Part shown: positions 12,325-24,891 of the stretch, piece after piece
Numbering within the stretch: the first letter of the stretch is position 1
Layout: every line of letters begins with the position of its first letter
Made by a program: the position numbers and the translations under genes
NCBI RefSeq assembly: GCF_000195975.1
Contig: NC_005070.1
Location: 330,001-362,000 of the forward strand
DNA from: Parasynechococcus marenigrum WH 8102
GTDB lineage: Bacteria; Cyanobacteriota; Cyanobacteriia; PCC-6307; Cyanobiaceae
DNA length: 32,000 nucleotides
Direction of reading: 5' to 3'
Notes under the pieces: generated by a model
Told to the model about the DNA's origin: nothing
Seen by the model: only the letters and a program-made list of their open reading frames with translations
Database searches by the model: none

Positions 12325-12836
12325 TCACCGCAGGGGAAGACGGCATTACGCCACTTCCCAAAAATCGCGGTGATGCCATTCCTGATGCCAATATCCCGCC
12401 TGTCTTGGCGGGTATGGATAAGGCGGAGGAAAGCGGCCAGTTCGCAGTGGTGGTTGGCTGCGTCGCCCAGCTCAACAAGATGATGGCTCTAGGTGCAGAC
12501 CAGAAGGGTTTCCGTGGTCATTCGACGCACTACAACCGGCGCTAAAAAGGCATCAGCACAATTGTCCTTACCGGTGTTTCAACGCCTGCTTCCGCTGGTG
12601 CCGTTGTTCATGCTTCTTTTTGGTATCAATTAAGCCAATTGCTTTTGTTCTGTAGCTAATTTTACTCTAGCCTTGTTTTCTATATAGCTAGCACTAATCA
12701 ATTGCTTAATAAAAGCCAAAATACGTTAATCTAATTCGTAGCAATTATTGATAAAGCAATCAATTTGTATTGGTATCCATAATTTTATGGACAACTATTT
12801 TTGATCGATCAATGTATATCCAACGGATCAACTCCG

Positions 12837-13142
12837 ATGCTGAGCACTAACACAAGACTAAAGCTCCAAGAAATCCTCACTCGTTTATCCAAAAACGAGC
12901 TGGTTAGTCTTGACGAGAGAATCCTTATTCAAAAGTATGCAGATAGGAATTCAACAGTTTGGCACTGGTTGCGGAAAGCAAGGTCAATTCAGGCTATGGG
13001 CCACTTAGATCAGCAATCTGTTGGCGGTTTTATGCAGCAGATGAATCTTCCAGGACAGACAACCGAGGACCATTTCAATGGTTCGCAAGATGATTTAGGT
13101 GAATGGTTTCAAGGATCCCCACAATGGGTACGTAGAAGCTGA
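12837..13142 (+). CDS. Hypothetical protein
   Basis: ATG-started 101-aa version of tracked ORF 12801..13142. It is low-GC with plausible codon usage, and no family was recognised. Confidence 0.4.
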   Translation: MLSTNTRLKLQEILTRLSKNELVSLDERILIQKYADRNSTVWHWLRKARSIQAMGHLDQQSVGGFMQQMNLPGQTTEDHFNGSQDDLGEWFQGSPQWVRRS

Positions 13143-13314
13143 AATCACAATCAAAACCTTATGCATGCACGACTACGAAATTAATACAAGCAATTCTTGC
13201 CGTAATTTAGTTTGCGCTGACTGCCTCAACTCAGATTCGGAAGGGAGGGGCCCTGAACCGTTATGGCGATCGACTTTGGTCAGCAAGTTGGGTTGCGTCT
13301 TGCTGGCGGTGCGC

Positions 13315-13929
13315 TCATCTGAGTGATTCGCAAGCTTCTCCATCACCGTCACCATCGAGGTATCGGTGTCCTTTAGTCAAGAGTTGTTGAGCGCGACTCC
13401 AGGAGCCAATGTCCTTGCAGCGGTATTTCCTACTGCTGCTGGAGTTGGTTATACTGCTCCCTCCTCCCTTGCGGTAGTCCCAAGGACGTGTGATTCCCGA
13501 TCGTCCGACAGACCAAATGCCAATACCCCGACGCTTCGCTTCATCCTCAATCCCCAAGTATTTCTGAGCATCGCATTTACGGAGATACTTCCTGTAAGCA
13601 AATGCTTGCCCAGCCCCCACCATCAGTTTGTTCACATTTCCTTGGTAGTTGATTAATTCAGCCACGACCCGCCCGTGCCGGTCTGTTGTCTGAACTCTCA
13701 GAGTGACTTGAGAGCCGATGGGAGTCAGCTGCTTCAGTAGTTCCGTTGATCTCGCTCCCCAGGGTTGTTGGGATCTCTCCGGCGCATCAATGCAAGCAAG
13801 GCGAACCGTAATTTTTTTGTTGCCTTCAGACACTCGTATAGTGTCGCCGTCCCCGACAGAAACCACAGTTGCAGCGTTCACGTTTGTCGTAAGGCAAGCT
13901 GCCAGCAGCAGTGCGGTGGCTGCTTTCAT
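13315..13929 (-). CDS. Secreted thermonuclease (SNase-like) with C-terminal Excalibur calcium-binding domain
   Basis: It has a signal peptide (MKAATALLLAACLTTNVNA), the SNase motif VVSVGDGDTIRV...VRLACIDAPE and RHGRVVAE. The C-terminal CKDIGSWSRAQQLL...DGDGDGEACE matches the Excalibur DxDxDGxxCE signature. Confidence 0.85.
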   Translation of the reverse strand: MKAATALLLAACLTTNVNAATVVSVGDGDTIRVSEGNKKITVRLACIDAPERSQQPWGARSTELLKQLTPIGSQVTLRVQTTDRHGRVVAELINYQGNVNKLMVGAGQAFAYRKYLRKCDAQKYLGIEDEAKRRGIGIWSVGRSGITRPWDYRKGGGSSITNSSSSRKYRCKDIGSWSRAQQLLTKGHRYLDGDGDGEACESLR

Positions 13930-14276
13930 CTTTTCAGCACGTGGTTATAGGCCAAGGATGGCAGAGTCTTTGGAGGTGCCTCAAGTTTGTAAACCGAATA
14001 AGGATGGTTATAGGGATCAATCCGGTATGGCGTTCCAAATGGGTCATCGCAGAGGTCAGGTCTGGGAAGACGTCCAGATACTATTTCGTTTGCTTCAGTC
14101 AGATGGTGTCGGTTATTTGCAGTAGCCCTTAGTAGCGAAATGATATTAAAAAAGGGTACGACTTTGAAAGTCAGCCCCCTTTTTTGTTGATTGCTAGGGC
14201 ACCCCTCGCATTAGTATCTTAGTACGGATAGTTCTTGTTTTCGGGTTGTTTCTTATGGGGAGTTAATCTCTTATGA

Positions 14277-14507
14277 ATGATTTCCCCCGAGCTGCGGAAC
14301 GTGGCAAGCATTCTTGCTTTAATTCATCGGCGCTACCCCGACGCATTACCCGACGCATTACCCGACGTATTGCCGTTGTTCGCCGGGATCGTGCTCATAA
14401 CCCACCGCGAACTGATCGCTCACCTGCTGAACACGGAACCTGACTGGCCATGGCAAAAGCCAACACAGAAGCCACTGCTGAGCGAGTCGATCACCTCCAG
14501 GGAATGA
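14277..14507 (+). CDS. Hypothetical small protein containing YPDALPDALPDVLP repeat (doubtful)
   Basis: The 76-aa ORF overlaps the next gene by 58 nt and contains the 12-bp tandem repeat. Coding status is uncertain. Confidence 0.2.
   Translation: MISPELRNVASILALIHRRYPDALPDALPDVLPLFAGIVLITHRELIAHLLNTEPDWPWQKPTQKPLLSESITSRE
14337..14372. repeat. Tandem 12-bp repeat x3 (cccgacgcatta, cccgacgcatta, cccgacgtattg)
   Basis: Read directly from the sequence. It is in frame with ORF 14277..14507, encoding (P)DAL x3. Confidence 0.85.
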
Positions 14508-14815
14508 TCCTGGCCGGTGAGACCAACACCGCTTGTCTCATATATGCGCGACAAACATGGGGGGTCTCAAGGTCACAGGGCTACAGGCTGATTAAGCGGG
14601 CTTGGCGTCAGATCCATGACGACATCGAAGGCCCCGACCTCAAACGGCAAGAGATGTTGGCTTGGTGCGTCCAGACCTTGATTGAGACGGCTGGTCAGGC
14701 CAAGGCGCAGCGCAACCCGGGTGCTGTTGTTGCTGCAATCCGCCAACTCGATTGGATGTGCGGGCTGGGGATCCACTCATCAGCCGGGCACCGAGTCCAC
14801 CGAACGAGGCTGTGA
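14450..14815 (+). CDS. HTH DNA-binding protein, small-terminase (TerS)-like architecture
   Basis: The 121-aa ORF has the N-terminal HTH ARQTWGVSRSQGYRLIKRA. Its C-terminal helix NPGAVVAAIRQLDWMCGLG resembles the ...AL..L.K..GL end of phage small terminases. A protein of the same architecture lies in element 2 (27664..28044). Confidence 0.5.
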   Translation: MAKANTEATAERVDHLQGMILAGETNTACLIYARQTWGVSRSQGYRLIKRAWRQIHDDIEGPDLKRQEMLAWCVQTLIETAGQAKAQRNPGAVVAAIRQLDWMCGLGIHSSAGHRVHRTRL

Positions 14816-15005
14816 CGTAACTGAGGTTGTGTTGACAGAGGTGGCCGGCGCCGCAGAGGGCTTTTTAGCCTTTTTTTGGTCAGATCCTTTGCAGCGCAGA
14901 TGATTTGCACCGGGGACCTTTGCTCGCGGGTTTAGAGGTACTTTTTCGCTCAGAACGACTGCAGTGCAGTGGACATGAACCGGCCAGCAAGACAAACAGG
15001 ATCAA

Positions 15006-15290
15006 ATGCATTGCTCTGCGGGCGATCTCACCCTGCCGCCGGGAACTGTGCTTGTCGGCGAGCTGGGTCTGGGCGGACAGCTCAGACCTGTCGGTCAGCT
15101 GGAGTTACGCCTGCAGGAGGCGGCGCGGCTCGGATTCCGGCGGGCAGTGGTGCCCCGCGGCAGCGGTCTGGGTGCCTTGGCCGCCGGCTTGATCTTGCCC
15201 TCTTGGAGGCCGATAGGGTCACCGAGGCCTTTTGTGCTGGCCCTCGGCGAGGACTTGACGGATCAGAAGTAGACGTGTAGGTTCGTGTCA
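15006..15290 (+). pseudogene. radA: 3'-terminal fragment of radA/sms (Lon-like C-terminal domain), frameshifted
   Basis: The translation TVLVGELGLGGQLRPVGQLELRLQEAARLGFRRAVVPRGSG matches the conserved RadA C-terminus (GEVGLxGEIRPV...RxxEAxKLGFxxAIVP). The expected tail LDLALLEADRVTEAF continues in another frame (ORF 14969..15280). No N-terminal 300+ aa is present. Confidence 0.7.
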
Positions 15291-15296
15291 TACCAA

Positions 15297-15362
15297 GCGG
15301 TTTGCCCATGTAAGTGGGTCGGAACAAACTCGGAACAGAGCCCGGAACGTGACACGGAACAG
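15297..15362 (+). repeat. GGAACA-rich direct repeat R1 (left flank of low-GC cassette)
   Basis: gcggtttgcccatgtaagtgggtcggaacaaactcggaacagagcccggaacgtgacacggaacag matches 16526-16591 at about 47 of 66 positions by hand. This includes the identical core tgggtcggaacaaac. It contains four GGAAC(A) copies spaced 10-13 bp apart. Confidence 0.75.
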
Positions 15363-15481
15363 ATCCTATTAAGTTTTGTTACATCTTTTTTAGATCCCGT
15401 TACGGTTTTTTTGTAAAAATTGCAAGCCCCGAAAAGGCTCTAAAATCGAAAGTTTTCAGAATCCTGCACGACAAGCAAGAA

Positions 15482-16312
15482 ATGTTCTTCTTTCTATTTG
15501 CCCCTAAGTTTTCAGGCTCAACAGTGATGAGCCAAGTCATTGCAAACTCTGTTAACGGCTACTTACCGTCATTCACAAACAACGAAGGTCAAATGGTCCC
15601 TGCTGTCAAAAAAATCATCTTTGCTCAAGATCGCTGGGATCCAAACGTTGATTACAAGTGGGACCCGATCAAAAGCACATGGCTTTCACTACTTCATAAT
15701 TCGCAAAAAGATATTTTCATCGAAGCATCACCTCCAAATATCATGAGACTTGAGTCGATCAAGAGAAATTTTTCTGAAGACATGACAGGAGTAATCTCTA
15801 TTTCATCTCCGTACATGCAGATCACTTCAGCAATAAAAAAGAAATACCACAACATGGTTGAAAACAAAAAGTTGCGCTCGAGAGACCAGATTCCCGAGAA
15901 GTTGATTCGCAAAGCAACCAACAGCTGGGTCCTCATGGCCAAAGCACAACGCAACAATGTCAAGTCAAATCCATCCATGCCATTGGTGACGTATGAGCAG
16001 TTCTGCAAGAATCCCCAAAAACTAATCAAAGCTTTCTGCAATCAAGCACAGATTCAAACAAAAAGCTATAAACCACAAAAGATCGGCGGAAAAAAATTCA
16101 CAGGAATTACAGGAATCATGGACATGACATGCAAGAATCTTTCGTTCTTGTCGCTCAAGGAGATCGAAATATTAACAAGAAACCTCAAGCGTCACCGCAG
16201 TTTACTTCGCTTTTTCGGCTACCAATTGCTAACCACCCAAGACGTTACGGCGATGTACGAAAGACATATGCCTCTTGTAATTGATGGGATGCATTCCCGC
16301 TTGCATCGATAA
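15482..16312 (+). CDS. Sulfotransferase-like protein (low-GC cargo gene)
   Basis: The 276-aa AT-rich ORF begins FFLFAPKFSGSTVMSQ, resembling the sulfotransferase PAPS-binding loop (PKxGTT/ST). The function call rests on this motif only. Confidence 0.5.
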   Translation: MFFFLFAPKFSGSTVMSQVIANSVNGYLPSFTNNEGQMVPAVKKIIFAQDRWDPNVDYKWDPIKSTWLSLLHNSQKDIFIEASPPNIMRLESIKRNFSEDMTGVISISSPYMQITSAIKKKYHNMVENKKLRSRDQIPEKLIRKATNSWVLMAKAQRNNVKSNPSMPLVTYEQFCKNPQKLIKAFCNQAQIQTKSYKPQKIGGKKFTGITGIMDMTCKNLSFLSLKEIEILTRNLKRHRSLLRFFGYQLLTTQDVTAMYERHMPLVIDGMHSRLHR

Positions 16313-16322
16313 ACCCAAAAAA

Positions 16323-16348
16323 AACTCCTCACGCAAGCGAGAGGAGTT
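16323..16348. terminator. Hairpin aactcctc-N10-gaggagtt flanked by an A-run on the left (T-run on the minus strand)
   Basis: An 8-bp perfect stem sits 11 nt after the stop of 15482..16312. The U-tract is only on the minus-strand reading, so it may be bidirectional or minus-directed. Confidence 0.4.
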
Positions 16349-16525
16349 AAAAACAGAACAGCAGCCAAGTGAAATAATTCAGGCGGTGCGCAAGTTTCCC
16401 CTGAATTTCACGCTTTTATAATAAGTAAGTATTGCCTAAGCGTATCTCGTCAAATCGCGCTCTAAGACTCGATTCTTGGAAGTTACATTTGTCAGAAGTA
16501 GACATCAACGTTCTTGTCATCCTAA

Positions 16526-16591
16526 CGGGTTTGCTCTTGTGGATGGGTCGGAACAAACCTGGAACAGGGGTGTGCTCTGGACACGGAACAA
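16526..16591 (+). repeat. GGAACA-rich direct repeat R2 (right flank of low-GC cassette)
   Basis: cgggtttgctcttgtggatgggtcggaacaaacctggaacaggggtgtgctctggacacggaacaa is the partner of R1. Confidence 0.75.
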
Positions 16592-16836
16592 TGCTTGGCC
16601 GCGGCTCCAGACTGGCAATAGAGACTTGCTTTTGTGTTTTGTATTAGAGCAAATGCAGCAGAAAGCCTTTCAGTTGATTCAGAGCCATCGCGCTCCTCGA
16701 CTGCGGTTCAAGAACCTTCGCTGAGAACGGCGTGATTGACTGTCAGCAAGAGAGGAAGGCCGCCCTTCCCGGTGGAAAGACGGCCTAAATTGCTCGCATG
16801 AGCGTGGTTTAACAAACACTGGAACTGTTTGCCAAG

Positions 16837-17112
16837 TTAACTTTGTTTATTGGCCATAAACTCTCTGTCTGTTTCGGTCATCGTATCTTCATCATCATGA
16901 AAAAAGCATCCATAAAGTAGATTCTCTATTCTTGCAACGTCCATATCGAGATCTGCTACTTCTTGCCATAGATAGATTTCCCGAAATCTGTTTCCAAGAT
17001 AGAATTGCGCTTCGGAAATGTCTCTTGCTATTTTAAAATAAGCAGACTGTTCCTTGGCTTTTGGCGACACATAGGTCAGGATTTTCCTCCCGATTGACTG
17101 CATGGTTGTCAT
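16837..17112 (-). CDS. Hypothetical protein
   Basis: 91-aa AT-rich ORF; no family recognised. Confidence 0.4.
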   Translation of the reverse strand: MTTMQSIGRKILTYVSPKAKEQSAYFKIARDISEAQFYLGNRFREIYLWQEVADLDMDVARIENLLYGCFFHDDEDTMTETDREFMANKQS

Positions 17113-17220
17113 AGTTCGATCCAGAACCTATAAAGATTTTAGTAGCAAGCACTACAAAATCAATGGGTCGTAATGCCTGTTCCGAGGTCTCCATTGCCCG
17201 GCCCAAAGCCTGTGCGGTGA

Positions 17221-17424
17221 TCAGATGAGGTCGTAAGCCCTCAATACCTGAACACGGATGCCCCCAAGCTTTTGCCATGCCTCCAGTGCTTCCTTTTTTG
17301 ACTGAAAGGGAAGCCAGTCGTCTTCTTCTAAGCGGCGTTTGATATGAGCCGCGACTCTTTGAGCTACAACCGCGTCGCTTTTAAAGCGAACACTTATGTT
17401 TCGGCCGTTGATTTTCAACTGCAT
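17221..17424 (-). CDS. Hypothetical small protein
   Basis: Internal-Met version (MQLKINGRNISVRF...) of tracked ORF 17221..17586. The N-terminal extension is Ser/Arg-rich and looks non-coding. Confidence 0.3.
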   Translation of the reverse strand: MQLKINGRNISVRFKSDAVVAQRVAAHIKRRLEEDDWLPFQSKKEALEAWQKLGGIRVQVLRAYDLI

Positions 17425-17527
17425 CAGCGAATCAAGAGTGTCGTCAGTTTGGCGCTGACAACCGCTGTCGCTGCATCTGTTCTGACGGAAGTTGGATGAA
17501 CTCAGGAGTCCGGTTGAGATGGAGGAG

Positions 17528-17749
17528 CTAGAGCCCTCGAGCCTGACGAAAGGCCGTTGAGTATGGGAAGAGAAATCCCGTCTCAAGGGCGCCTAACTCT
17601 TGCTCTGCCGAATAAAGGCTCCTTGTAACGCGGCAATGGTTTTCGCCATCGCAAACCAAGAAATGGCCATCTTCGGTCCTTTGGATAGTGGCGCCATGCG
17701 GCGTCTTAACTATGAGGTTAGCTTTCGCCATGCTGGGGTGAAGCGACAT
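17528..17749 (-). CDS. Hypothetical small protein
   Basis: The 73-aa ORF competes with antisense ORF 17600..17941 (+). The strand cannot be resolved by eye. Confidence 0.25.
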   Translation of the reverse strand: MSLHPSMAKANLIVKTPHGATIQRTEDGHFLVCDGENHCRVTRSLYSAEQELGALETGFLFPYSTAFRQARGL

Positions 17750-17897
17750 CCTTGTTATGGCCCTGGTCTTACCTGGGTGGGCGTAGCTGACAATATTGAT
17801 CTGGAAATCAGCACGCTCCCATACCCCCTTCAGGAGCTTCCGGCGCTGGCAGTCGTAACTAGCCTTACGGAGCCAAACTGGTTCCAGGCAAAAAAGC

Positions 17898-18713
17898 TTG
17901 ATGTCTGGTCAGTACCCACCAGGAAGCGAAGGATGGCGTGACGCTCTGGACTACCCGCCAGAAACCAGGGCAGATGTATCGGAAAATCGCCGCCGGTATC
18001 TCAAGGAGGCAAAAAAATTTCGAAAGGAAAGCGATGCTTGGGAGGAAGGAAGGATCGTTGGAGTTTTCGAAAGTCAGCTCTCTGATGGTGGTTCAACCTC
18101 TAAACAGTCCAAGGAGCCGACTCCTGAAGATGTTCGCTTGGCAAAAGAGCGAGCTGAGTTCAAGGAAATGATGCAGGCCAAGCGTGAGGCCAAGCAGGTA
18201 GCTCGCGCGGCGGATGAAAAAGCGGAGTTTCGCGAGTTCATGCGCGAATGGATAGCGACCAAGTGGGATGGTGAAACTCCTGATCACCTCAAAAAAGCAC
18301 TGCCCACAGGGGATCCAAAGGATCTCGGGATGCTCATCAGCGAATGGCACTCTTACGGCGGCAGGAAGAACAACCACGCCAGTGATGCCACTTTGACTCG
18401 GTATCTTTACTTCCCTCCCGCTGACCAGAGCCCAGTAGTAGACACGCCTCCAGCGGGGTTCGTTTACTTCGTCAGGAACGAGGATCTCTTCAAAATCGGG
18501 ATTACAGAAAACATGCTGCGGAGGCTGAAGCAACTTGCGCCGGATGAGCTTCTAAATGTCGTTCGCTGCTCCAACTTCCAGGAGGTCGAACGGGAGCTGC
18601 ATCGACGTTTCAAGGATGTTCGCTTGCCTCAAACGGAGTACTTCCGGCTGAGTGATCAGCAGGTGCAGGAGGTCCACCAACTCATGGTGAAGTTGGCGGA
18701 GTTCCAGTCGTAA
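17898..18713 (+). CDS. T5orf172/MUG113 (GIY-YIG-superfamily) domain protein
   Basis: The C-terminal GFVYFVRNEDLFKIGITENMLRRLKQL...ELHRRF...EYFRL matches the T5orf172 pattern (GxVYhh....hKIGxT....RhxxL...E..hH..F....EWF). The N-terminal half is charged and coiled. Confidence 0.7.
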   Translation: MMSGQYPPGSEGWRDALDYPPETRADVSENRRRYLKEAKKFRKESDAWEEGRIVGVFESQLSDGGSTSKQSKEPTPEDVRLAKERAEFKEMMQAKREAKQVARAADEKAEFREFMREWIATKWDGETPDHLKKALPTGDPKDLGMLISEWHSYGGRKNNHASDATLTRYLYFPPADQSPVVDTPPAGFVYFVRNEDLFKIGITENMLRRLKQLAPDELLNVVRCSNFQEVERELHRRFKDVRLPQTEYFRLSDQQVQEVHQLMVKLAEFQS

Positions 18714-18747
18714 CGGGAATTGCGTAATGAAAAAGCCCCAATATTTA

Positions 18748-18771
18748 CCGTGTTCCGGAACACGGTTTTTT
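18748..18771 (+). terminator. Rho-independent terminator
   Basis: The perfect palindrome ccgtgttcc/ggaacacgg is followed by tttttt, 35 nt after the stop of 17898..18713. Confidence 0.8.
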
Positions 18772-18886
18772 GATCCCTTTGGTCTTCCGACTTCATTTCT
18801 AGGGGCCTTTGACGTTCTTCTGAAGTGATGGTCTGGTTGATTTCAGTCACACCAGGATTTTTGGAAAACGATCTCTAGGGACTGTT

Positions 18887-20005
18887 TTAATTTGCCGCCG
18901 GTGGAAGTGAGTTCAGCCCGCTATTAACTGCCTGCTCCAATCGTCTGGGGTTGTAAAGCGCCCCAACCGAATCGAACATCGCCAGCATCCTGGTGATCGC
19001 ATCAACATGGCCGGTGGCTTCTGAGCTGGCAGCTCTGTTTTCTGATTCCCACTGCTTGTGGCCGGAGTGGCTTAACCACTGCCACAGCTCATCACGTATC
19101 AATGAACGGGCAGCAGTTGGATTGGCGATCAGCGCATTGGCTTCTACCTTTCGCGGCCCGTACGTCTCCAGGTAGTCCTGCACATACGGGAACTTGCGGT
19201 GCTTGTGATTTGGGTTGGCCAAGTCACCACCACTGCTGGTTTCAAGACCGTCGATCCACACCAGACCGGCATTGTCCACAAACTCGGCGTTTAGCCCAAA
19301 GCGCACGATTCGACCGTCGTCAGCCATGTCTTCCAGGGAATCGTCCCAGTTCAGAACCTTGGCCAATGGCCTCAGGTTTTCAGCGATTGCGTCGGACATC
19401 TTGACCCCCATCGGATCAAGGTCGCCGCAATAAAGAACCACCGGTTCCAGTCCCTGCAACTCGGCCCAATCACATTCCTGAATCAGCGCCACCCTGCTGT
19501 TCACGTCAGCCTGGCCTTTGCTGGCAAAACGGCGGATTGCGTTGGGCAATTCCGGCTCGAACAGCTTGATCAGGTCACGTTTTTCAGTCCAGATGATCGG
19601 GAAGTACTCCTGATGCTTCCAGTAGCTGGCAGGCCAGTAATGCTTGGCTTGATCCAGCGATTCCCGCAGCTGACGGTTGATGTATTCCCGCGGGGTTTCT
19701 TCTTTGTCGTAGACGTCAGAACCAGACAGAGCACGGGTTGAATCCGCACCGACAAGTTCAAACGGAATCAGCCCTTCTTTGCGGCGATCAGCAAGCCACT
19801 TACCAGACCAAGTGAAATCGCCTTTAGTGATGATGCCTTCTGATTCCAGGGCATACAGCCAGGAGCGAGCAACAGGAGCAAAACCGAGACGCGCAACGTA
19901 TTGGCGCATCCAAGCCACTACTTCATGCATATCTGCATGAAATTGCAGTCTTTTGGCTTCACTAATCCTGCCGCTGCCCATTCGGGGTAGTGCGGTGATG
20001 ATCAC
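18887..20005 (-). CDS. Topo-VI-A/Spo11-like Toprim protein (stand-alone, mini-A or JetD-like)
   Basis: The 372-aa ORF has IIWTEKRDLIKLF (Toprim Glu, cf. vVEKdavF), VLYCGDLDPMGVKM (DxDPxG metal site) and KVEANAL (cf. ElEAL). The N-terminal ARSWLYALESEG offers a candidate RxxxY catalytic Tyr in a winged-helix-like segment. Confidence 0.55.
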   Translation of the reverse strand: MIITALPRMGSGRISEAKRLQFHADMHEVVAWMRQYVARLGFAPVARSWLYALESEGIITKGDFTWSGKWLADRRKEGLIPFELVGADSTRALSGSDVYDKEETPREYINRQLRESLDQAKHYWPASYWKHQEYFPIIWTEKRDLIKLFEPELPNAIRRFASKGQADVNSRVALIQECDWAELQGLEPVVLYCGDLDPMGVKMSDAIAENLRPLAKVLNWDDSLEDMADDGRIVRFGLNAEFVDNAGLVWIDGLETSSGGDLANPNHKHRKFPYVQDYLETYGPRKVEANALIANPTAARSLIRDELWQWLSHSGHKQWESENRAASSEATGHVDAITRMLAMFDSVGALYNPRRLEQAVNSGLNSLPPAAN

Positions 20006-20101
20006 GGGTGAAGTTGCAAAAAATGGATTACGTAGTCACCCCCAACACCCAAGAATCCAGAACTGGATAAATGGGTGAGAGGGGAATAAGGGGAGGGGTT
20101 A

Positions 20102-22072
20102 TTAGTCCGGGCGACTCGGGTTCCAGAAGGCCCTAACCCACTTGCCGGTGCCGATGCGGCGTTGGTCATAGAGCCACCCGTGATGGGTCATCAACTCCCG
20201 GATGCGTTGGGCGTTGAAGTTGTTCTGGCGTTCCGGACCGATCTCCAGGAAGTCGTAGATCTGCTGGCGCTGGACGTAAGCCGCAGTGCCCTGGCGTTTA
20301 AGCCAGTCGCCGATCAGATCCGACCACGGGTCCACGAGGTCGTAGTCGCTGTTCCTGGTGAGGATGCGATCCATCTCCTCATCGGTGCTCCACGTCTGGA
20401 GACCGTTCTGGAACTCCCGCAGTGCCTTGGTCCAGATGGCGTCTCTGGCTTCGGCGATCCGCTGAACGGGCAGCTTTTCGTCACCGACGGGGATCATCAC
20501 GAACCTGGTGGAGCCGGTGTTGTCCGTCAGCGGCGACTTGTTCGTCGTCGCGAAGAACACGGACCGCCGGTGGATCGGTTCAGTGCCTGGGGCGTACTTA
20601 CGGCGCACTAAGTCCACCCGCCTACTCAGGAAGGCTTTGAGCTTTTCCTGTTGAGTCCGGCGGGTGATGCCGTTCAGCTCGCCCAGCTCCATGCCCCACA
20701 CGAACTGGAGTCGGGTCACGTCGTCGATGTCCAGCGCGGAGGAAAGTCCGTCGCCGTAGAACTCGTGGCCGAACAGGCTCCTGCCTGCCTCCGTCTTCCC
20801 GATCCCCTGGCCGCCAAGAATGCACGGGGTCTGACGTTGCTGGCAGCCGGGGACTTTGACCCTGGCCACGGCGCTGGTCAGATACCGAGGCATGAATGCG
20901 TCGGCGATGGGGTCGTCGACGTTGAACAGGAAGCGACCCAGATGATTCCAGTCCTCATCAGGCAGGGGGTCCGCCGAGAGGTTGGACAGGTAGACATCCA
21001 CGGGATCGAACTGATGCTCGTGAGCCAGCTCAATAAACGCATCGCGAGCGATCTTCTGGCTCCACCGGTTGGGGCTCGGTGGCATCGACAGGCGGAGGTA
21101 GAGGTTCTCCGTCTGGGTCGCCGTGGCCTCTGCACCGTTGATGTGGATGCCGCGGCTTCGCAGGTTCAGTCGGGGTACATCGCCCAGCTGCTCAGCCATC
21201 AATTTGAGGGCGTCGCCTGCCTGGACTTTCTTTTGACGTAAATCCTGTTGCTCCACATGGATCCGGAACACCGCGGCGTTGCCAACGGCTGTCTCGCGAT
21301 CACCGCAGTAGGCCCAGGTGACCCCTCCCTTAACGACCGTCTCGCCCTTGGCCATCACCGGTGGCGACCAACGCTTGCCGTAGTGGCAGAGGATCACCTT
21401 CCCGTCGGCGGATTGGCGGCAATCAGGTTCTGTGCGCCCACAGATCGGGCAAGGGATGGCGTCATGCCAATCCCCGACCTGTTTATGGGATCGCCTGTTT
21501 TCCGTCTTGGCCATGGCCTTTTGCCATAACGCCCACCAGTCATCGGGGATGGGGGCGATCCGCTCCGGATTGCGCTGGGTCCAGACGTATTCGCCGCCAG
21601 ATTGGCGGTGCTCGCCGGCAACGATGCACTGGCCTGTGGACCAGAAGATCTCGACCTTCTCGTTCCCGTCGGCCTTCACCTCGCATTTGCCTGGAAGGTG
21701 TTCCCACCGTTCCTTTGGCACTCTGAAGAAGAGCTTGTAGCGGTTGGAATCGGTATTCCGACCAACCATCCAGGTGACCGGCTGGTGCTCGATCCCCATC
21801 CTGATCAGCTCGCTGATGGCACTGAGCCCATCGATGTCGAAGCAGACGATGCCGCCTGCGTCAGGGCCTAGGCGTGTGCCGACACACAGGACCTTTGGTC
21901 CCATTGCCGCGATCTCATCGGGAGTGAACGACATGTGTTGCCAGCCCTTCGCACCGAAGCCAGTGGAGGGATCAATGGGCGCCTTGAACTTTTCCCCTGC
22001 ACCACAGGGGATGAGAGGGAGGCCAGTGAGCTGCGGGAGCAGCTTCTGCCTCCAGTTGCTGACTGGTTTCAT
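20102..22072 (-). CDS. Bifunctional primase-polymerase (prim-pol) / zinc ribbon / VirE-D5-type P-loop helicase
   Basis: The 656-aa ORF has the N-terminal prim-pol pattern LPLIPCGAGEKFKAP...GWQ...VGTRLG...IVCFDIDG. Its central part is CPICGRTEPDCRQSADGKVILCHYG. Its C-terminal part has Walker A GGQGIGKTE and WGMELGEL, typical of VirE-family ATPases. Confidence 0.85.
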   Translation of the reverse strand: MKPVSNWRQKLLPQLTGLPLIPCGAGEKFKAPIDPSTGFGAKGWQHMSFTPDEIAAMGPKVLCVGTRLGPDAGGIVCFDIDGLSAISELIRMGIEHQPVTWMVGRNTDSNRYKLFFRVPKERWEHLPGKCEVKADGNEKVEIFWSTGQCIVAGEHRQSGGEYVWTQRNPERIAPIPDDWWALWQKAMAKTENRRSHKQVGDWHDAIPCPICGRTEPDCRQSADGKVILCHYGKRWSPPVMAKGETVVKGGVTWAYCGDRETAVGNAAVFRIHVEQQDLRQKKVQAGDALKLMAEQLGDVPRLNLRSRGIHINGAEATATQTENLYLRLSMPPSPNRWSQKIARDAFIELAHEHQFDPVDVYLSNLSADPLPDEDWNHLGRFLFNVDDPIADAFMPRYLTSAVARVKVPGCQQRQTPCILGGQGIGKTEAGRSLFGHEFYGDGLSSALDIDDVTRLQFVWGMELGELNGITRRTQQEKLKAFLSRRVDLVRRKYAPGTEPIHRRSVFFATTNKSPLTDNTGSTRFVMIPVGDEKLPVQRIAEARDAIWTKALREFQNGLQTWSTDEEMDRILTRNSDYDLVDPWSDLIGDWLKRQGTAAYVQRQQIYDFLEIGPERQNNFNAQRIRELMTHHGWLYDQRRIGTGKWVRAFWNPSRPD

Positions 22073-22088
22073 GCGAGGGGGGTGCTCC

Positions 22089-22352
22089 TCAAACCGTCAG
22101 CGGCGCGGTGTCTCTGCCGAAGGTTTCAACCTCCGCCGAAGACTCCCGCTTGTGGTTCCACAGGCTTTGGATTGCCTGCTCCTTGTTCCATCTGACCTTG
22201 CGAGTGCCGAGGCCGATGAACTGCCAATCCCGGTGCTGTTGGAAAGGACCGTTGGGGTCCCGCCGCATCCGAAGAATTGTCTCTGGACTGAGCTGAGCCG
22301 CCTGGGCGACTTCAGCGGTTGTGGACGCAATTTCCATTTCGAGGGCACGCAC
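22089..22352 (-). CDS. Small HTH protein, excisionase/AlpA-like regulator
   Basis: It has the HTH TTAEVAQAAQLSPETILRM and the start may be ATG at 22337. It is clearly homologous to 31316..31528 in element 2 (shared ..DW......R..L.WN.E.A......W.........VETF). It sits immediately upstream of the primase gene. Confidence 0.55.
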   Translation of the reverse strand: MRALEMEIASTTAEVAQAAQLSPETILRMRRDPNGPFQQHRDWQFIGLGTRKVRWNKEQAIQSLWNHKRESSAEVETFGRDTAPLTV

Positions 22353-22354
22353 CC

Positions 22355-22615
22355 TCAGGTGCGCGGGGTGCCATCCCAGTTCTCATGGTGCAGAAGTTCC
22401 GCCTGGAGCTTGGCCATGAAGTTGGCCTTTTTGTCCCGGCGTCCCTGATCAGGATTGCCTTTGTCAAGCGTTCCAATAGAGAAGCCCTCGTCTAGTCGCA
22501 CCCGCGCGCGGGTGAAATAGCGAACAAGACGTTCCAGGTGCTGACGTTCATGACCCTCAGGCCAATGAGTCAAGCGACCAGGACGAATCGGAATTGGGCG
22601 ATCAGGACCTTGCAT
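22355..22615 (-). CDS. Hypothetical protein
   Basis: Met-36 version of tracked ORF 22355..22720. Its stop lies 2 nt from the start of the next gene, consistent with an operon. Confidence 0.35.
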   Translation of the reverse strand: MQGPDRPIPIRPGRLTHWPEGHERQHLERLVRYFTRARVRLDEGFSIGTLDKGNPDQGRRDKKANFMAKLQAELLHHENWDGTPRT

Positions 22616-22812
22616 CCAGCAGGGATGACGTGTTCGGTTTGATCCCCCGGAGGCAGACGCGCTGCTGCTGTTCCGACATCTCGAAGGCAACGTAACACCA
22701 CTGATCGGGATCGTCAGCAAATTTCCCCACCGATGCCACTACGGATGGTGTCAGCAGCTGGAAGTGTCTAGAGCAGTTGGGAGAGGTTGCAAGGATTGAA
22801 TAAATCTATGCC

Positions 22813-22862
22813 GATAATGATTATCATTCTTTTGTGCCAATAATGAGAATTATTCTTATACT
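22813..22862 (+). promoter_or_regulatory. Two Fur/Zur-type boxes overlapping a candidate promoter of the metallothionein gene
   Basis: Box 1 is GATAATGATTATCATT (22813-22828), with the perfect core AATGA-TTA-TCATT. Box 2 is AATAATGAGAATTATTC (22839-22855). A candidate -35 ttgtgc lies at 22832-22837 and a -10 tatact at 22857-22862. Confidence 0.55.
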
Positions 22863-22915
22863 TTAGGCCGCTTATTGGTCTAGTGTTGTGGCTGAAAATT
22901 GCCTGGCCACATCAA

Positions 22916-23086
22916 ATGTCTACAGCAATCAAATGTGCATGCCCTAAGTGCACCTGTATGGTCGCAGAAGAGAGCGCAATTGTTCTTCAAGGTAAGTTCT
23001 TTTGCTCGACGTCCTGTTCAACAGGGCATGCCAATAATGAGCCCTGTCATGGCGAAGGCTCTTGTGGATGTAAGTGCGGAGAGTAA
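22916..23086 (+). CDS. bmtA: Bacterial metallothionein (SmtA/BmtA family)
   Basis: The 56-aa protein is MSTAIKCACPKCTCMVAEESAIVLQGKFFCSTSCSTGHANNEPCHGEGSCGCKCGE. Its Cys/His spacing follows SmtA (KCACxxCxCxV....AI...G..yCS..C..GH......C......C.C). Confidence 0.85.
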   Translation: MSTAIKCACPKCTCMVAEESAIVLQGKFFCSTSCSTGHANNEPCHGEGSCGCKCGE

Positions 23087-23144
23087 TCGGGGCGGTGGCC
23101 AGGCATGGCGGTGCTTTAAGCCCGCCTTCAACGTTGGGGTGGTG

Positions 23145-24425
23145 TCAGGGCAGCGGGATCGTGCCGGTCTTGGCGGCGAAGTCGCGGGTCCTCATCCCCA
23201 GGGTCATGGTCCGATAGCTGTGCGAGTGCACCGCTTCGCTGTGGCCCATCGCGTCGCAGATCGACGCCACCGGCACTCCCTCTCGGTGGCAGCGGATCGA
23301 GTAGGTGTCCCGAAAGCTGTAGGGCCGCAACCACTCGCTCGGATCCTGTTTGTCGTAGTGCTCCACCAGCTCTGCCCAATAGATCTGAACCGCACCGCTG
23401 GGCTTGCCTGTCGATCGTGACTTCCGGTGGATGTAGCAGTTCACCGCGCTCCCAGAGAGCTTGCGGACATCACCATCCCTGCCGGTGGGCAGCTGCAAGG
23501 TTCCGTCGGCCATCGCCTGCTCCAGGGGCCACACCACCGGCTGATCGTTGCCGTCGCGGATGTACATCGCTTCCAGGAAGCGGGGATCGGTTTCCTCTTC
23601 ACCGCCGGTCTTCCTGTAATTGCACCAGATGGCTGGCTTGCCGGTCACCGGGTTGACTCGGCTGCTCAGATGCTGAAGCTCGATGGGTCTTAAACCAAAT
23701 TGCGTCAATAGTCGGAACACGTTGCCCCACCTGACGTTTACCGAGTCGGCCAGCTCAATCAGGCGCAGCATCTCTAGGTCGTCCAGCACCGCTTTAAGCC
23801 TCGGCTTCGGTGCCTTGGGGATCAGCTCGTCCTTGTCGAACTCGGTGATCAGCCAGCTCGCTGGGGCCTTGTGCCGGGACACCGCGAACTGCATAAACAG
23901 GCCGAGGTAGCGGCCGCACTCCACCTTCATCGTGGGAGCCCCTTCCCAGTTCTTCAGAGCCTCCTTCAACAGGCCATAGCCGTCGTGGGCCTTGCCGGTG
24001 TTGATGAGCCTCACGGCGTAGTCGATGAATGGCCGCCAGTTCTTCCGGAAGGTGTGGGCGCTGCACTTCTGCGACTGCTGCACCCGGGACGCCTCCATTG
24101 CGTCTGCGATTTGTGCCCATGTTTTGGCCTTCTCCTCTCCTTGGAGATCGCTTGTGTCGTGAGCGTCGGCGACTGCTGCCTTCAGCGTTTTCTCGCCGTT
24201 GTCCCACGCCTTGTAGACCGCCTCAATCCACCGGATGGCGTTGCGGTGGTGCACCTCATCCCAGGTGTTGGGCCGCGGCAAGTAGGCGGTCTCTGCGGGG
24301 CGGCCACGCTTCCTGACGCGCAGCACGATCCGGTCGCGGACGCGGGAGATGCTCCAGCCGTTCCAAGGCTCAGTTGTCTCGACCAGGCGCTGTTCCCACC
24401 GGGGGCGCGAGTCATCCGGAGCCAA
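23145..24425 (-). CDS. int: Tyrosine site-specific recombinase (integrase)
   Basis: The 426-aa ORF has the C-terminal catalytic region LRPIELQHL...(R), YSFRDTYSIRC (HxxR-type box), and DAMGHSEAVHSHSYR (H...Y). The annotated start is TTG and is not certain. Confidence 0.9.
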   Translation of the reverse strand: MAPDDSRPRWEQRLVETTEPWNGWSISRVRDRIVLRVRKRGRPAETAYLPRPNTWDEVHHRNAIRWIEAVYKAWDNGEKTLKAAVADAHDTSDLQGEEKAKTWAQIADAMEASRVQQSQKCSAHTFRKNWRPFIDYAVRLINTGKAHDGYGLLKEALKNWEGAPTMKVECGRYLGLFMQFAVSRHKAPASWLITEFDKDELIPKAPKPRLKAVLDDLEMLRLIELADSVNVRWGNVFRLLTQFGLRPIELQHLSSRVNPVTGKPAIWCNYRKTGGEEETDPRFLEAMYIRDGNDQPVVWPLEQAMADGTLQLPTGRDGDVRKLSGSAVNCYIHRKSRSTGKPSGAVQIYWAELVEHYDKQDPSEWLRPYSFRDTYSIRCHREGVPVASICDAMGHSEAVHSHSYRTMTLGMRTRDFAAKTGTIPLP

Positions 24426-24429
24426 TGGA

Positions 24430-24453
24430 GTGATGCCAAAAGTGATGCCAAAA
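24430..24453. repeat. Perfect tandem 12-mer x2 (gtgatgccaaaa) abutting the integrase start
   Basis: Read directly at 24430-24441 and 24442-24453. It lies 5 nt upstream of the int start on the minus strand. Confidence 0.85.
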
Positions 24454-24549
24454 AGATCCTATTCAGTCGTTCTCTGTCGTCAAGGGTTGCCAACAGACCA
24501 GGGCTCTGACTATGTTCTGCCCGTGATCGTTGTTTCCGTAAGGAAAGCA

Positions 24550-24603
24550 GTCAGTTGTATTACCCAAATGACTCATGGGGCCTGGAAGGGCCCTTCAACC
24601 ATT
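24550..24603 (+). repeat. Distal att-like direct repeat (copy 2): an orphan copy of the tmRNA 3' end
   Basis: gtcagttgtattacccaaatgactcatggggcctggaagggcccttcaaccatt is the partner of 12271-12324. No tmRNA body lies upstream of it. Confidence 0.85.
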
Positions 24604-24891
24604 GCCAATACTTGAGTCACGGATGCGACTAGGCCGAGATTTTGGAGCTGCGACCCAGGGTGTGACCCGAAGGTCGTCGTTTTAGGGCTAAGTGACCCAT
24701 GCGGGGTCACAGAGGACTGCTGCGGAAACCTGCTGAATCTTGGAGAAGTTGGTAGAAGTCAAGTGAGCACAAGGGTAGAAGCCTTTCTTTTGTTATTGCA
24801 AGACAATAAAATAAGGGCGGTGCATCACTCCGCCCCTAGGAATCACCAACATCTATAGATGAGAGATCTGCTCCTTTAGTTTAGTTCAACG

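What the first reader, a model, noticed from the sequence alone, without database searches (positions are those of the whole stretch)
12325..24603. 12.3-kb integrase + primase-helicase + Toprim element with nutrient/stress cargo at the tmRNA locus
The direct repeats bound a mosaic element. Its right-hand 6 kb is a lifecycle module: Toprim protein, prim-pol/VirE helicase, Xis-like HTH and tyrosine integrase reading inward from the distal repeat. Its left-hand 6 kb is a patchwork of AT-rich cargo. No capsid, portal, tail or large-terminase genes are present. As far as I recall, this architecture matches the tycheposon-type elements described for Prochlorococcus, or phage satellites. Here it is in a high-GC Synechococcus background and at a two-piece tmRNA.
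Basis: partly seen in the sequence, partly recalled or inferred. Interest (0 to 1): 0.8.

Follow-up and report, generated by a model that had tools for sequence, protein, structure and literature searches.

The report
Tycheposon-like mobile element at Synechococcus tmRNA
A 12.3-kb mobile DNA island, with its own integrase, excisionase-like gene and DNA-replication genes, sits in the end of the tmRNA gene of a marine Synechococcus; it is a Synechococcus relative of the "tycheposon" elements already described in Prochlorococcus, so it is a solid but not a new kind of finding.

Summary
A 55-nt direct repeat (12270-12324 and 24549-24603, 85% identical, with a 19-nt identical core) copies the 3' end of a permuted cyanobacterial tmRNA gene. 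It bounds a low-GC mosaic.

- **Right half:** one minus-strand module of a divergent tyrosine integrase, a conserved 121-aa ORF, an Xis-like HTH protein, a Prim-Pol/VapE primase-helicase and a TopoVI-A-type Toprim protein.
- **No virion genes** were found.
- **Right boundary:** homology to five related contigs stops at 24599-24606.
- **E1-free state:** in Synechococcus AG-670-B23 the tmRNA is followed directly by the DNA that here lies beyond 24603.
- **Link to tycheposons:** the integrase is not XerC/D and has no phage homologue. It is 34% identical to the integrase of a 9-kb repeat-flanked tmRNA element in Prochlorococcus. It is 28% identical to one beside tRNA-Arg(TCT) in Synechococcus WH 8017. 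Both are published tycheposon target sites.

- The interval is composite. It holds a decayed Xer-like second integrase at attL and a radA 3' fragment with a nested repeat.
- It is the first unit of a tandem array; a second element starts at 24604.
- The only clear stress cargo is a metallothionein.
- Prochlorococcus tmRNA is also permuted, so the two-piece target is not a distinguishing feature.

Verdict: a new member of a known kind.

The parts
12027..12314 (+). Permuted (two-piece) tmRNA gene, the integration target. It is intact.
   Evidence: Rfam RF01851 over the full model, 315 bits. ARAGORN places it at 12021-12339 with tag ANNIVRFSRHAAPVAA.
12270..12324 (+). attL. It covers the loop and 3' strand of the penultimate helix, the spacer, and the terminal GGAA hairpin of the tmRNA coding piece.
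   Evidence: Left of 12270 is tmRNA body. Right of 12324 the sequence changes to the arm that precedes intA in relatives.
12300..12540 (+). Decayed N-terminal remnant of a second, Xer-like tyrosine recombinase (intA).
   Evidence: tblastn of the L086 intA protein gives 32% identity over 99 aa with deletions, E 1.4e-5. Intact intA occupies this position in L001, L005, L009, L010, L061, L086 and L113. It has SAM_1 + Phage_integrase domains. Its XerC score is 124 bits against a cutoff of 335.
12801..13142 (+). AT-rich cargo ORF shared with T4-like cyanophages; function unknown.
   Evidence: phrog_507, E 7e-17. Homologues in 210 Synechococcus/Prochlorococcus phage records at about 36-38% identity.
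13315..13929 (-). Nuclease (SNase + Excalibur Ca-binding domain) with a hydrophobic, signal-peptide-like N-terminus; cargo.
   Evidence: Pfam SNase E 1e-17 and Excalibur E 7e-5. The N-terminus is read from the translation.
14277..14815 (+). Conserved pair of small genes (76 aa and 121 aa) that recurs in the left part of related tmRNA elements. The 121-aa protein is all-helical and HTH-like, a presumed DNA-binding regulator.
   Evidence: Homologues lie in the same order in L086, L010, L001, L085 and L091. AF2 model pLDDT 78, five helices, no fold match. 636 clusters in metagenomes.
15006..15272 (+). 3'-terminal fragment of radA, a captured piece of a chromosomal gene.
   Evidence: PDB RadA 5lkq E 1e-7, aligned to residues 383-429 of the 452-aa chain 5lkm. 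Pfam ChlI weak hit.
15263..16590 (+). Nested 99-nt direct repeats (15263-15361 and 16492-16590, 75% identical). They start at the radA stop codon and flank a GC-0.42 segment with a 276-aa ORF (15482-16312).
   Evidence: The ORF has no family or PDB hit.
17898..18713 (+). MUG113/T5orf172 (GIY-YIG-like) domain protein; cargo, possibly defence-related.
   Evidence: Pfam E 1e-15 and 4e-13. PADLOC PDC-S57 E 2e-9. A 65% homologue lies next to intA in L091.
18887..20005 (-). TopoVI-A/Spo11/JetD-type Toprim protein, with an N-terminal helical domain carrying an invariant Tyr. Part of the replication module.
   Evidence: phrog_6247 'DNA topoisomerase', E 6e-33. AF2 pLDDT 90.5. Foldseek M. mazei Top6A, prob 0.92 but E 0.16. 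Family members weakly hit DUF2399, JetD_C and TOP6A Toprim. E141, D195xD197 and Y51 are invariant. An 82% homologue sits in the same gene run as a D5_N primase-helicase (three small ORFs between) in another element.
20102..22072 (-). Prim-Pol + VapE/VirE (SF3) primase-helicase; replication of the excised element.
   Evidence: Pfam VapE-like 1e-45 and Prim-Pol 6e-11. PHROG DNA helicase 4e-47.
22089..22352 (-). Xis-like small HTH protein, the probable recombination directionality factor.
   Evidence: Always found downstream of the integrase in relatives, including Prochlorococcus L035 and E2. Hits are weak only: phrog_66 E 0.006; HTH_17 in 5 of 11 members, best E 0.014.
22355..22720 (-). Conserved 85-121-aa ORF between xis and int; function unknown.
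   Evidence: Homologues at 54-100% identity in L084-L089, L090, L096, L098 and L111-L113. No family hit.
22883..23086 (+). SmtA/BmtA-type metallothionein; a cargo gene inserted inside the lifecycle module.
   Evidence: Pfam Metallothio_Pro 47.4 bits against cutoff 33. The window stretch 22752-23147 has no counterpart in L084, whose integrase is 94% identical. It is present in L090. It also lies, at 84% nt identity, beside a different integrase in L157.
23145..24425 (-). intB, a divergent tyrosine integrase of 426 aa. It is the enzyme inferred to recombine attP with the tmRNA 3' end.
   Evidence: R246, K272, Y369xxR372, H395 and Y404 are invariant in 38 homologues. The profile hits XerC-like/XerA structures only in the catalytic C-terminus, E 2.6e-5. 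Pfam score is below cutoff. 34% identical to the Prochlorococcus tmRNA-element integrase, E 6e-74. 28% identical to a tRNA-Arg(TCT) element integrase, E 1e-40. 205 clusters at 50% identity score E<=1e-30.
24549..24603 (+). attR, a partial tmRNA 3' end. Its hairpin carries a compensatory G-C to C-G change, which is a natural tmRNA allele.
   Evidence: Homology to L001, L084, L090, L091 and L092 ends at 24603-24606, and to L093 at 24599.
24604..32000 (.). Second, related element (E2), cut by the window end. Plus strand: a 55-aa ORF, then ORFs starting at 25056, 25364 and 25841, a low-GC 419-aa ORF, and an ORF at 27664 related to the 121-aa protein above. Minus strand: an AAA_25 protein (28627-30198), an xis-like gene (31316-31528), and the integrase C-terminus at 31961-31999.
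   Evidence: 83.7% identical to the element that directly follows the tmRNA in L012..

Best explanation
The segment is an integrative, probably self-replicating element of the tycheposon type. It is inserted by site-specific recombination into the 3' end of the permuted tmRNA gene of a marine Synechococcus.

**Shown**
- The element is bounded by a 55-nt duplication of the tmRNA 3' end, with an identical 19-nt core flanked by diverged arms.
- The tmRNA stays intact. The distal copy carries a different but structurally valid hairpin allele.
- An intact tyrosine integrase with all catalytic residues lies about 125 nt inside the distal repeat. Behind it come a conserved small ORF, an Xis-like gene, a Prim-Pol/VapE primase-helicase and a TopoVI-A-type Toprim protein.
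- Relatives of this module end at the same att boundary but have different DNA beyond it.

**Inferred**
- IntB recombines attP on a circular form with the tmRNA 3' end.
- IntB plus Xis excise the element.
- The primase-helicase and the Toprim protein replicate the circle.
- Transfer between cells relies on vehicles the element does not encode.
- Cargo such as the metallothionein rides along.

The interval is composite. A decayed Xer-like integrase abuts attL. A radA 3' fragment with its own nested repeat, a cyanophage-shared gene and a nuclease fill the left half. The element is the first unit of a tandem array at this hotspot; a second element (E2) follows at 24604.
For: - **att repeat:** its existence and significance; arm structure; the distal copy recognised as a tmRNA 3' fragment; both hairpin alleles occur in genuine tmRNAs.
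- **Module genes:**
- **Boundary:** homology with L001, L084, L090, L091, L092 and L093 stops at 24599-24606. Beyond the att lies E2 here, intA in L001, L085 and L091, and other genes in L084.
- **E1-free state:** L012 runs tmRNA-att-E2-like DNA without interruption. Window 10062-12327 and 24549-26032 both align to it and overlap at the att.
- **Variable occupancy:** content differs across the 18 marine Synechococcus tmRNA loci mapped.
- **Same family at tycheposon sites:** Prochlorococcus L035 has a 9-kb element flanked by 69-nt tmRNA repeats, with a 34%-identical integrase, an xis-like gene and a DUF3987 protein. WH 8017 has a tRNA-Arg(TCT) element with a 28%-identical integrase, an 82%-identical Toprim protein and a D5_N primase-helicase.
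- **Published definition:** Hackl et al. list tmRNA and Arg-tct among the seven tycheposon sites, with about 40-bp partial duplications and with YR, xis, Prim-Pol and hel_VirE as hallmark genes.
- **Present in nature:** a 99.6%-identical copy of 19842-24603 lies on an independent metagenome contig.
Against: - No circular form or attP was observed.
- No relative was found in IMG/VR viral contigs, so transfer in virus particles is unsupported here.
- Membership of the integrase in the published tycheposon clades was not tested against the authors' sequences.
- The published 'top' hallmark is Topoisom_I, which is a different protein from the Toprim protein here.
- The Xis assignment rests on weak HMM hits plus conserved position.
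- The left half is degraded and mosaic. The 12.3-kb unit may no longer move as a whole.
- Two integrase genes in one att-att interval is not the published architecture.
Confidence: 0.8

Rival explanations
1. Immobile relic. The repeats and genes are left over from several past integrations. The 12.3 kb is a fused remnant of a cryptic intA element and a tycheposon, and it no longer excises as a unit.
For: intA has decayed to about 80 residues with deletions. A radA fragment, a nested repeat and AT-rich patches fill the left half. The att copies are only 85% identical. Hackl et al. report that most island material is not active element.
Against: intB, xis, the primase-helicase and the Toprim protein are full-length ORFs with invariant catalytic residues. 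A 19-nt identical core persists. A 99.6%-identical copy of the right-hand module exists in a metagenome. Integrases 92-94% identical sit next to three different downstream neighbours, which points to recent recombination at this att.
Confidence: 0.2
2. Phage satellite (PICI-like). The element is induced by a helper cyanophage and packaged in its capsids.
For: It matches the size and gene set of satellites (integrase, primase-helicase, no virion genes). Hackl et al. describe PICI-like tycheposons. One cargo ORF is shared with cyanomyophages.
Against: No terS, capsid, or packaging or interference gene was found by Pfam or PHROGs. The candidate small HTH protein has no TerS-like fold match. No relatives appear in IMG/VR.
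Confidence: 0.08
3. Defective prophage remnant.
For: It has an integrase next to a tRNA-like gene and flanking repeats.
Against: No structural, lysis or terminase genes were found. The integrase has no homologue in 50,697 phage records.
Confidence: 0.02

Closest known systems
Tycheposons of Prochlorococcus (Hackl et al., bioRxiv 10.1101/2020.12.28.424599; tmRNA-specific group 'YR_tm')
   Same: - Same target gene, a permuted tmRNA, with partial duplication of its 3' end.
- Tyrosine integrase + xis + primase/helicase (Prim-Pol, VirE-type) module with variable cargo and no virion or conjugation genes.
- Tandem arrays inside a genomic island.
- The integrase is homologous to that of a Prochlorococcus tmRNA element (34%).
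   Different: - The host is a high-GC marine Synechococcus.
- The duplication is 55 nt rather than about 40.
- The TopoVI-A-type Toprim protein is not among the published hallmark profiles. Their 'top' is Topoisom_I and their Toprim primase is DUF3854.
- A second, Xer-like integrase or its remnant lies at the tmRNA-proximal end.
Tycheposon-like insertions at tRNA-Phe upstream of the phycobilisome rod region in marine Synechococcus (Grebert et al. 2022, PMC8995045)
   Same: Marine Synechococcus host. The integrase sits at the distal end next to a partial copy of the tRNA. Cargo is variable.
   Different: The target is different (tRNA-Phe versus tmRNA). Replication genes were not reported as a feature there. 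Relatedness of the integrases was not tested.
Cryptic_A elements, integrase YR_4, 'tmRNA-associated' (Hackl et al., Suppl. Table 5)
   Same: A conventional integrase right beside the tmRNA with few other hallmark genes. This resembles intA, which abuts the att and reads away from it.
   Different: YR_4 elements have about 20-bp repeats and a small serine recombinase. No such repeat or serine recombinase was seen here. Homology of intA to YR_4 was not tested.
PICIs / P4-like satellites
   Same: Integrase + primase-helicase, 10-15 kb, integration into tRNA-type genes.
   Different: No packaging-redirection, terS, capsid or repressor genes were found. The integrase family is unrelated to phage integrases in the collection searched.

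Membership tests
Tycheposon | Integration at one of seven tRNA-type genes (Pro, Ser, Ala, Thr, Arg-tct, Met, tmRNA) with a partial duplication of about 40 bp of the gene | tested here: met
   The 55-nt duplication of the tmRNA 3' end flanks the element.
Tycheposon | Site-specific tyrosine (or large serine) recombinase belonging to the tycheposon integrase clades | tested here: inconclusive
   The catalytic residues are conserved. There is full-length homology to integrases at the Prochlorococcus tmRNA (34%) and at Synechococcus tRNA-Arg(TCT) (28%).
Tycheposon | Hallmark replication genes (Prim-Pol, VirE-type helicase, etc.) | tested here: met
   Prim-Pol 6e-11 and VapE-like 1e-45 in one 656-aa protein.
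Tycheposon | Excisionase (xis1) with the integrase | tested here: inconclusive
   A conserved 80-90-aa HTH protein follows the integrase in all relatives. HMM hits are weak only.
Tycheposon | No capsid, conjugation or plasmid-maintenance machinery; carries cargo or a terS/MCP gene | tested here: met
   No such families were hit. Cargo present: metallothionein, nuclease, MUG113 protein. No terS or MCP was found.
Tycheposon | Mobility: excision or induction (e.g. by mitomycin C), presence in vesicles or capsids | not testable with these tools
   Indirect evidence only: different neighbours beyond the att. There were no IMG/VR hits.
PICI / phage satellite | Genes that hijack helper-phage packaging (terS, capsid-size or interference genes) and a helper-responsive repressor | tested here: not met
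   No hits. The candidate small HTH protein gave no TerS-like fold match.
XerC/XerD housekeeping recombinase (for intB) | Scores above the equivalog cutoffs; two-domain SAM-like + catalytic architecture; chromosome-dimer resolution context | tested here: not met
   The only NCBIfam hit is XerA at 21.9 bits against a cutoff of 220. The PDB profile hit is confined to the catalytic C-terminus. The gene lies inside a variable island.
Toprim-fold, TopoVI-A/Spo11/JetD branch (for the 372-aa protein) | Conserved acidic Glu and DxD motif on a Toprim fold | tested here: met
   E141 and D195-x-D197 are invariant. The model is confident. Top6A is the only high-probability fold hit, at prob 0.92 but E 0.16. 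Members give weak DUF2399, JetD_C and TOP6A_Toprim hits. phrog_6247 E 6e-33. No catalytic activity is shown.

The most novel reading that the evidence does not exclude
The mobile unit may carry two unrelated tyrosine recombinases: the Xer-like intA and the divergent intB. Each abuts one att copy and reads inward, so on the excised circle they would flank attP divergently.

Four lineages show tmRNA-att-intA...intB-att with no third att (L086-L088/L096, L112/L113, L001, and the window with intA decayed). In L091 the closest relatives of the window's intB and of its left-module genes sit on either side of a single att.

If this reading is right, these elements would use a dual-recombinase system. 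For example, one enzyme could handle the tmRNA site and the other could capture, resolve or exchange neighbouring units in the array. That would give a concrete mechanism for how tRNA/tmRNA-anchored islands grow.
Probability: 0.3. Interest if true: 0.55.

Novelty: new member of a known kind. Interest (0 to 1): 0.4.

Why it matters
It extends tmRNA-targeting tycheposon-type elements from Prochlorococcus to high-GC marine Synechococcus. The case is well delimited, with exact att boundaries, a comparison locus that lacks E1, and a near-identical copy in a metagenome.

It also shows that the integrase family behind these elements scores below Pfam's curated cut-off for its integrase family. Even so, the family has about 200 clusters at 50% identity that score E<=1e-30.

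Three smaller points are testable:
- A TopoVI-A-like Toprim protein travels with the primase-helicase.
- A metallothionein has been inserted inside the lifecycle module.
- Integration swaps the terminal hairpin allele of the tmRNA.

None of this overturns current understanding.

Tried and rejected
- **TerS idea.** I suspected that the small HTH proteins at 14450-14815 and 27664-28044 might be small terminase subunits, which would have made the element PICI-like. The AF2 model (pLDDT 78) has five helices and no meaningful Foldseek match. There is no Pfam or PHROG hit. Rejected as unsupported.
- **Third att copy.** A hidden copy would split the interval into an intA element and an intB element. 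None was found with up to 3 mismatches, with blastn-short, or with an nhmmer profile of 71 copies. This holds in the window, L001, L086 and L112/L113.
- **Viral contigs (IMG/VR).** I searched with the Toprim protein, the integrase, the primase-helicase and an integrase alignment. No relatives were found. The first alignment was too divergent to seed a search.
- **Far-side core gene.** No gene is shared within 10 kb downstream of the tmRNA in the 18 Synechococcus loci mapped. A classical empty site with core genes on both sides therefore could not be shown. Only the E1-free tmRNA-E2 arrangement in L012 was found.
- **Toprim protein against PDB.** Sequence and profile searches gave nothing.
- **276-aa low-GC ORF.** No hit in Pfam, PHROGs, NCBIfam, PADLOC or PDB.
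- **WH 8017 tRNA-Arg element.** No partial tRNA duplication was found within 15 kb.
- **Literature.** Williams' 'Traffic at the tmRNA gene' is not held. The integrase family of Flamholz et al. (PMC10187409) sits at tRNA-Phe/Cys, and its relation to intB could not be tested.

Full report
**Observation**

The window has a high-GC core (GC 0.61-0.69 over 1-12000, apart from one 0.55 bin at 9501-10000). GC then drops to 0.40-0.57 from about 12500, and there are further low-GC stretches out to about 28000. A permuted, two-piece cyanobacterial tmRNA gene lies at 12027-12314 (Rfam, full model, 315 bits). ARAGORN places it at 12021-12339.

Its last 45-55 nt recur 12.3 kb downstream. The copies at 12270-12324 and 24549-24603 are 55 nt long and 85% identical. 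A 19-nt core is identical in both and occurs only twice in the window, where 0.01 matches are expected by chance. An nhmmer profile of 71 such copies from related loci finds no third copy. Rfam itself recognises the distal copy as a tmRNA 3' fragment (E 6e-6).

**Anatomy of the att site**

I aligned both copies with the corresponding sites of five related loci.
- To the left of 12270, attL is tmRNA body. The left arm of attR is instead a sequence conserved next to the integrase in L091, L001 and L085.
- To the right of ...CCATT (12324/24603), the sequences diverge according to what follows. An 'intA-type' arm follows attL. An 'E2-type' arm follows attR, and this arm matches the genuine tmRNA flank of L012.

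On the Rfam structure, the repeat covers the loop and 3' strand of the penultimate helix, the single-stranded spacer, and the terminal 6-bp GGAA hairpin. The two copies differ in that hairpin by a compensatory G-C to C-G change. Both hairpin alleles occur among genuine tmRNA genes (17 and 7 of 38) and among distal copies (17 and 7 of 33). The distal copy is therefore a real tmRNA end of a different allele. Integration has swapped the tmRNA's terminal hairpin while leaving the gene intact. This is the usual logic of elements that integrate into the 3' ends of tRNA-type genes.

**The lifecycle module (18887-24425, all minus strand)**

- **Integrase (intB, 426 aa).** It scores below Pfam's cutoff (20.5 against 27.1 bits) and hits PHROG integrases only weakly. 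In an alignment of 38 homologues down to 25% identity, R246, K272, Y369-x-x-R372, H395 and Y404 are invariant. The profile matches XerC-like/XerA structures across box II and the nucleophile tyrosine (E 2.6e-5). It is thus a divergent tyrosine recombinase.
- **Not XerC/D.** The only NCBIfam hit is XerA at 21.9 bits against a cutoff of 220.
- **No phage relative.** tblastn finds no homologue in 50,697 phage records.
- **Family size.** 205 clusters at 50% identity score E<=1e-30, and 594 score E<=1e-10.
- **Genes behind the integrase.** These are a conserved ORF of unknown function (22355-22720) and an 87-aa HTH protein. The HTH protein follows the integrase in every relative, including Prochlorococcus and E2. 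It has only weak excisionase-type hits.
- **Replication genes.** A Prim-Pol + VapE primase-helicase comes next, followed by a 372-aa protein with no Pfam hit.
- **The 372-aa protein.** It matches phrog_6247 'DNA topoisomerase' (E 6e-33). Its AF2 model is confident (pLDDT 90.5). Foldseek gives no hit with E<=0.001; M. mazei topoisomerase VI-A is the only hit with high probability (0.92, E 0.16). Family members weakly hit DUF2399, JetD_C and TOP6A-Toprim. E141 and D195-x-D197 are invariant, as is Y51 in the N-terminal helical domain. 'Toprim protein' is therefore right, and more precisely it belongs to the TopoVI-A/Spo11/JetD branch.
- **Same partnership elsewhere.** An 82% homologue sits in the same gene run as a D5_N primase-helicase, with three small ORFs between them, in another element in Synechococcus WH 8017.

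**The left half (12325-18800)**

This half is a mosaic.
- **Second integrase remnant.** Directly after attL lies the decayed N-terminus of a second integrase, intA (12300-12540; tblastn E 1.4e-5, with internal deletions). Intact intA is a 360-aa Xer-like recombinase with SAM_1 + Phage_integrase domains. It scores 124 bits for XerC against a cutoff of 335. It occupies exactly this position in L001, L005, L009, L010, L061, L086 and L113.
- **AT-rich ORF.** The ORF at 12801-13142 has homologues in 210 cyanomyophages.
- **Nuclease.** An SNase + Excalibur nuclease follows.
- **Small-gene pair.** The pair at 14277-14815 recurs in the left part of related elements.
- **radA fragment.** A radA 3' fragment lies at 15006-15272 (E 1e-7).
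- **Nested repeat.** A 99-nt direct repeat starts at the radA stop codon and flanks a 1.1-kb low-GC segment.
- **Remaining ORFs.** Three small ORFs and a MUG113/T5orf172 protein complete the half.

A metallothionein gene sits inside the lifecycle module, between the 121-aa ORF and intB. That 396-nt stretch has no counterpart in L084, whose integrase is 94% identical. It is present in L090. It also lies, at 84% nt identity, beside a different integrase in L157.

None of the 22 E1 ORFs scanned hit a capsid, portal, tail or terminase family.

**Boundaries, mobility and the empty site**

Homology between the window and six independent relatives of the integrase module ends at the right edge of attR. 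The end points are 24603 in L001, L084, L090 and L092, 24606 in L091, and 24599 in L093. What lies beyond the att differs between loci:
- E2 in the window.
- An intact intA in L001, L085 and L091.
- Other genes in L084.

L090 (MDTB01001835.1) is 99.6% identical to window 19842-24603, and that contig breaks at the att.

In Synechococcus sp. AG-670-B23 (L012) the tmRNA runs straight into DNA that is 83.7% identical to window 24549-26032. Window 10062-12327 aligns to the other side, and the two alignments overlap at the att. This is the arrangement expected if E1 were removed.

Among the 18 marine Synechococcus tmRNA loci mapped, from the one-genome-per-species scan plus L001, the DNA downstream of the tmRNA differs almost everywhere. 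Only L001 holds a close relative of E1. No shared core gene lies within 10 kb downstream. The locus is therefore a hotspot, and a classical empty site with core genes on both sides was not found.

**Tandem array**

From 24604 a second element begins.
- **Left module (plus strand):** a conserved 55-aa ORF, then ORFs starting at 25056, 25364 and 25841, a low-GC 419-aa ORF, and a relative of the 121-aa HTH protein at 27664.
- **Right module (minus strand):** an AAA_25 protein (phrog_30286, E 3e-77), an xis-like gene at 31316-31528, and the C-terminus of an integrase at 31961-31999, cut by the window end.

Its L012 counterpart ends with a 432-aa integrase of the same superfamily (28% identity) and a distal att.

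**Comparison with what is known**

Hackl et al. define tycheposons in Prochlorococcus by four features:
- Integration at seven tRNA-type genes, including the tmRNA and tRNA-Arg(tct).
- Partial duplications of about 40 bp.
- Tyrosine integrases in site-specific groups, among them YR_tm.
- Hallmark genes xis, Prim-Pol and VirE-type helicase.

I found the same architecture in Prochlorococcus AG-402-B05 (L035). There a 9-kb element lies between 69-nt repeats of the permuted tmRNA's 3' end. At its distal end sits an integrase 34% identical to intB over its full length (E 6e-74). It also has an xis-like gene and a DUF3987 protein.

A 28%-identical integrase (E 1e-40) lies immediately downstream of tRNA-Arg(TCT) in Synechococcus WH 8017, together with the Toprim protein and a D5_N primase-helicase.

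Grebert et al. reported tycheposon-like insertions with a distal integrase in marine Synechococcus at tRNA-Phe.

The element therefore works like a tycheposon and meets the testable membership criteria. Placement of the integrase in the published clades remains inferred. The permuted tmRNA is not a distinguishing feature, because the Prochlorococcus target is permuted as well.

**What remains odd**

In four lineages the att-att unit holds both integrases with no third att between them. These are L086-L088/L096, L112/L113, L001, and the window with intA decayed.

The junction intB-att-intA, with the two genes reading away from the att, is seen in L001, L085, L091, L102 and L145. It would look the same for a tandem array and for the attP of an excised circle.

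In L091 both sides of that junction are the closest relatives of window E1 genes (92.8% nt for intB, 89.5% nt for the 121-aa gene region). This hints that the two modules travel together. Other elements (E2, L012, L153) lack intA.

I could not decide between two readings: one element with two recombinases, or a cryptic intA element fused to a tycheposon (compare YR_4, 'cryptic_A, tmRNA-associated').

**Verdict**

This is a real, well-delimited integrative element of the tycheposon type in a marine Synechococcus. It is composite, and it is the first unit of a tandem array. It is a new member of a known kind and of moderate interest. The dual-integrase arrangement and the TopoVI-A-like replication partner are the parts most worth follow-up.

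Noticed in passing
window 24604-32000: A second, related integrative element (E2) starts right after attR and runs off the window. It has conserved small plus-strand genes, a low-GC 419-aa ORF, and on the minus strand an AAA_25/phrog_30286 protein, an xis-like gene and the integrase C-terminus at 31961-31999. It is 83.7% identical at its left end to the element that directly follows the tmRNA in Synechococcus AG-670-B23 (L012).
   Followed up: partly
window 12300-12540: Decayed N-terminal remnant of a Xer-like tyrosine recombinase (intA). In many related loci the intact gene sits immediately after an att copy and reads away from it. The attL-proximal part of this remnant (window 12277-12429, att included) is 91% identical to a stretch beside yet another integrase in L152.
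   Followed up: yes
window 15006-16590: A radA 3'-terminal fragment ends exactly where a 99-nt direct repeat begins (15263-15361 and 16492-16590, 75% identical, containing GGAACA motifs). The repeats flank a 1.1-kb GC-0.42 segment with a 276-aa ORF that has no detectable family. It looks like a second att-type duplication, at the radA 3' end, carried into this island.
   Followed up: partly
window 12801-13142: An AT-rich 113-aa ORF (phrog_507) has homologues at about 36-38% identity in 210 T4-like cyanophage genomes, all annotated as hypothetical.
   Followed up: partly
window 22752-23147: The metallothionein gene with a promoter-like site (22834-22862) is a 396-nt replacement inside the lifecycle module. 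The stretch has no counterpart in L084 (94%-identical integrase). It is present in the 99.6%-identical L090. It also lies, at 84% nt identity, next to a different integrase in L157, so it behaves like a small mobile moron.
   Followed up: partly
L170 (Synechococcus WH 8017, CP138928.1) 6233-14706: Another element lies at tRNA-Arg(TCT). It has an intB-family integrase (28%, E 1e-40) directly downstream of the tRNA, a DUF6011 protein, a Toprim protein 82% identical to the window's, and a D5_N primase-helicase. No partial tRNA duplication was found within 15 kb.
   Followed up: partly
window 24604-25059 and L012 9259-9712: The left end of E2 has a conserved non-coding stretch with hairpin-forming GTGACCC...GGGTCAC motifs, followed by a conserved 55-aa ORF (24892-25059) that is also recognisable in L086. 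Function unknown; it could be a regulatory or arm-site region.
   Followed up: no
window 24508-24548: The integrase-proximal arm of attR keeps weak similarity to the tmRNA further upstream than the 55-nt repeat (Rfam model positions 196-288, 28 bits). The element may once have copied about 95 nt of the tmRNA.
   Followed up: no
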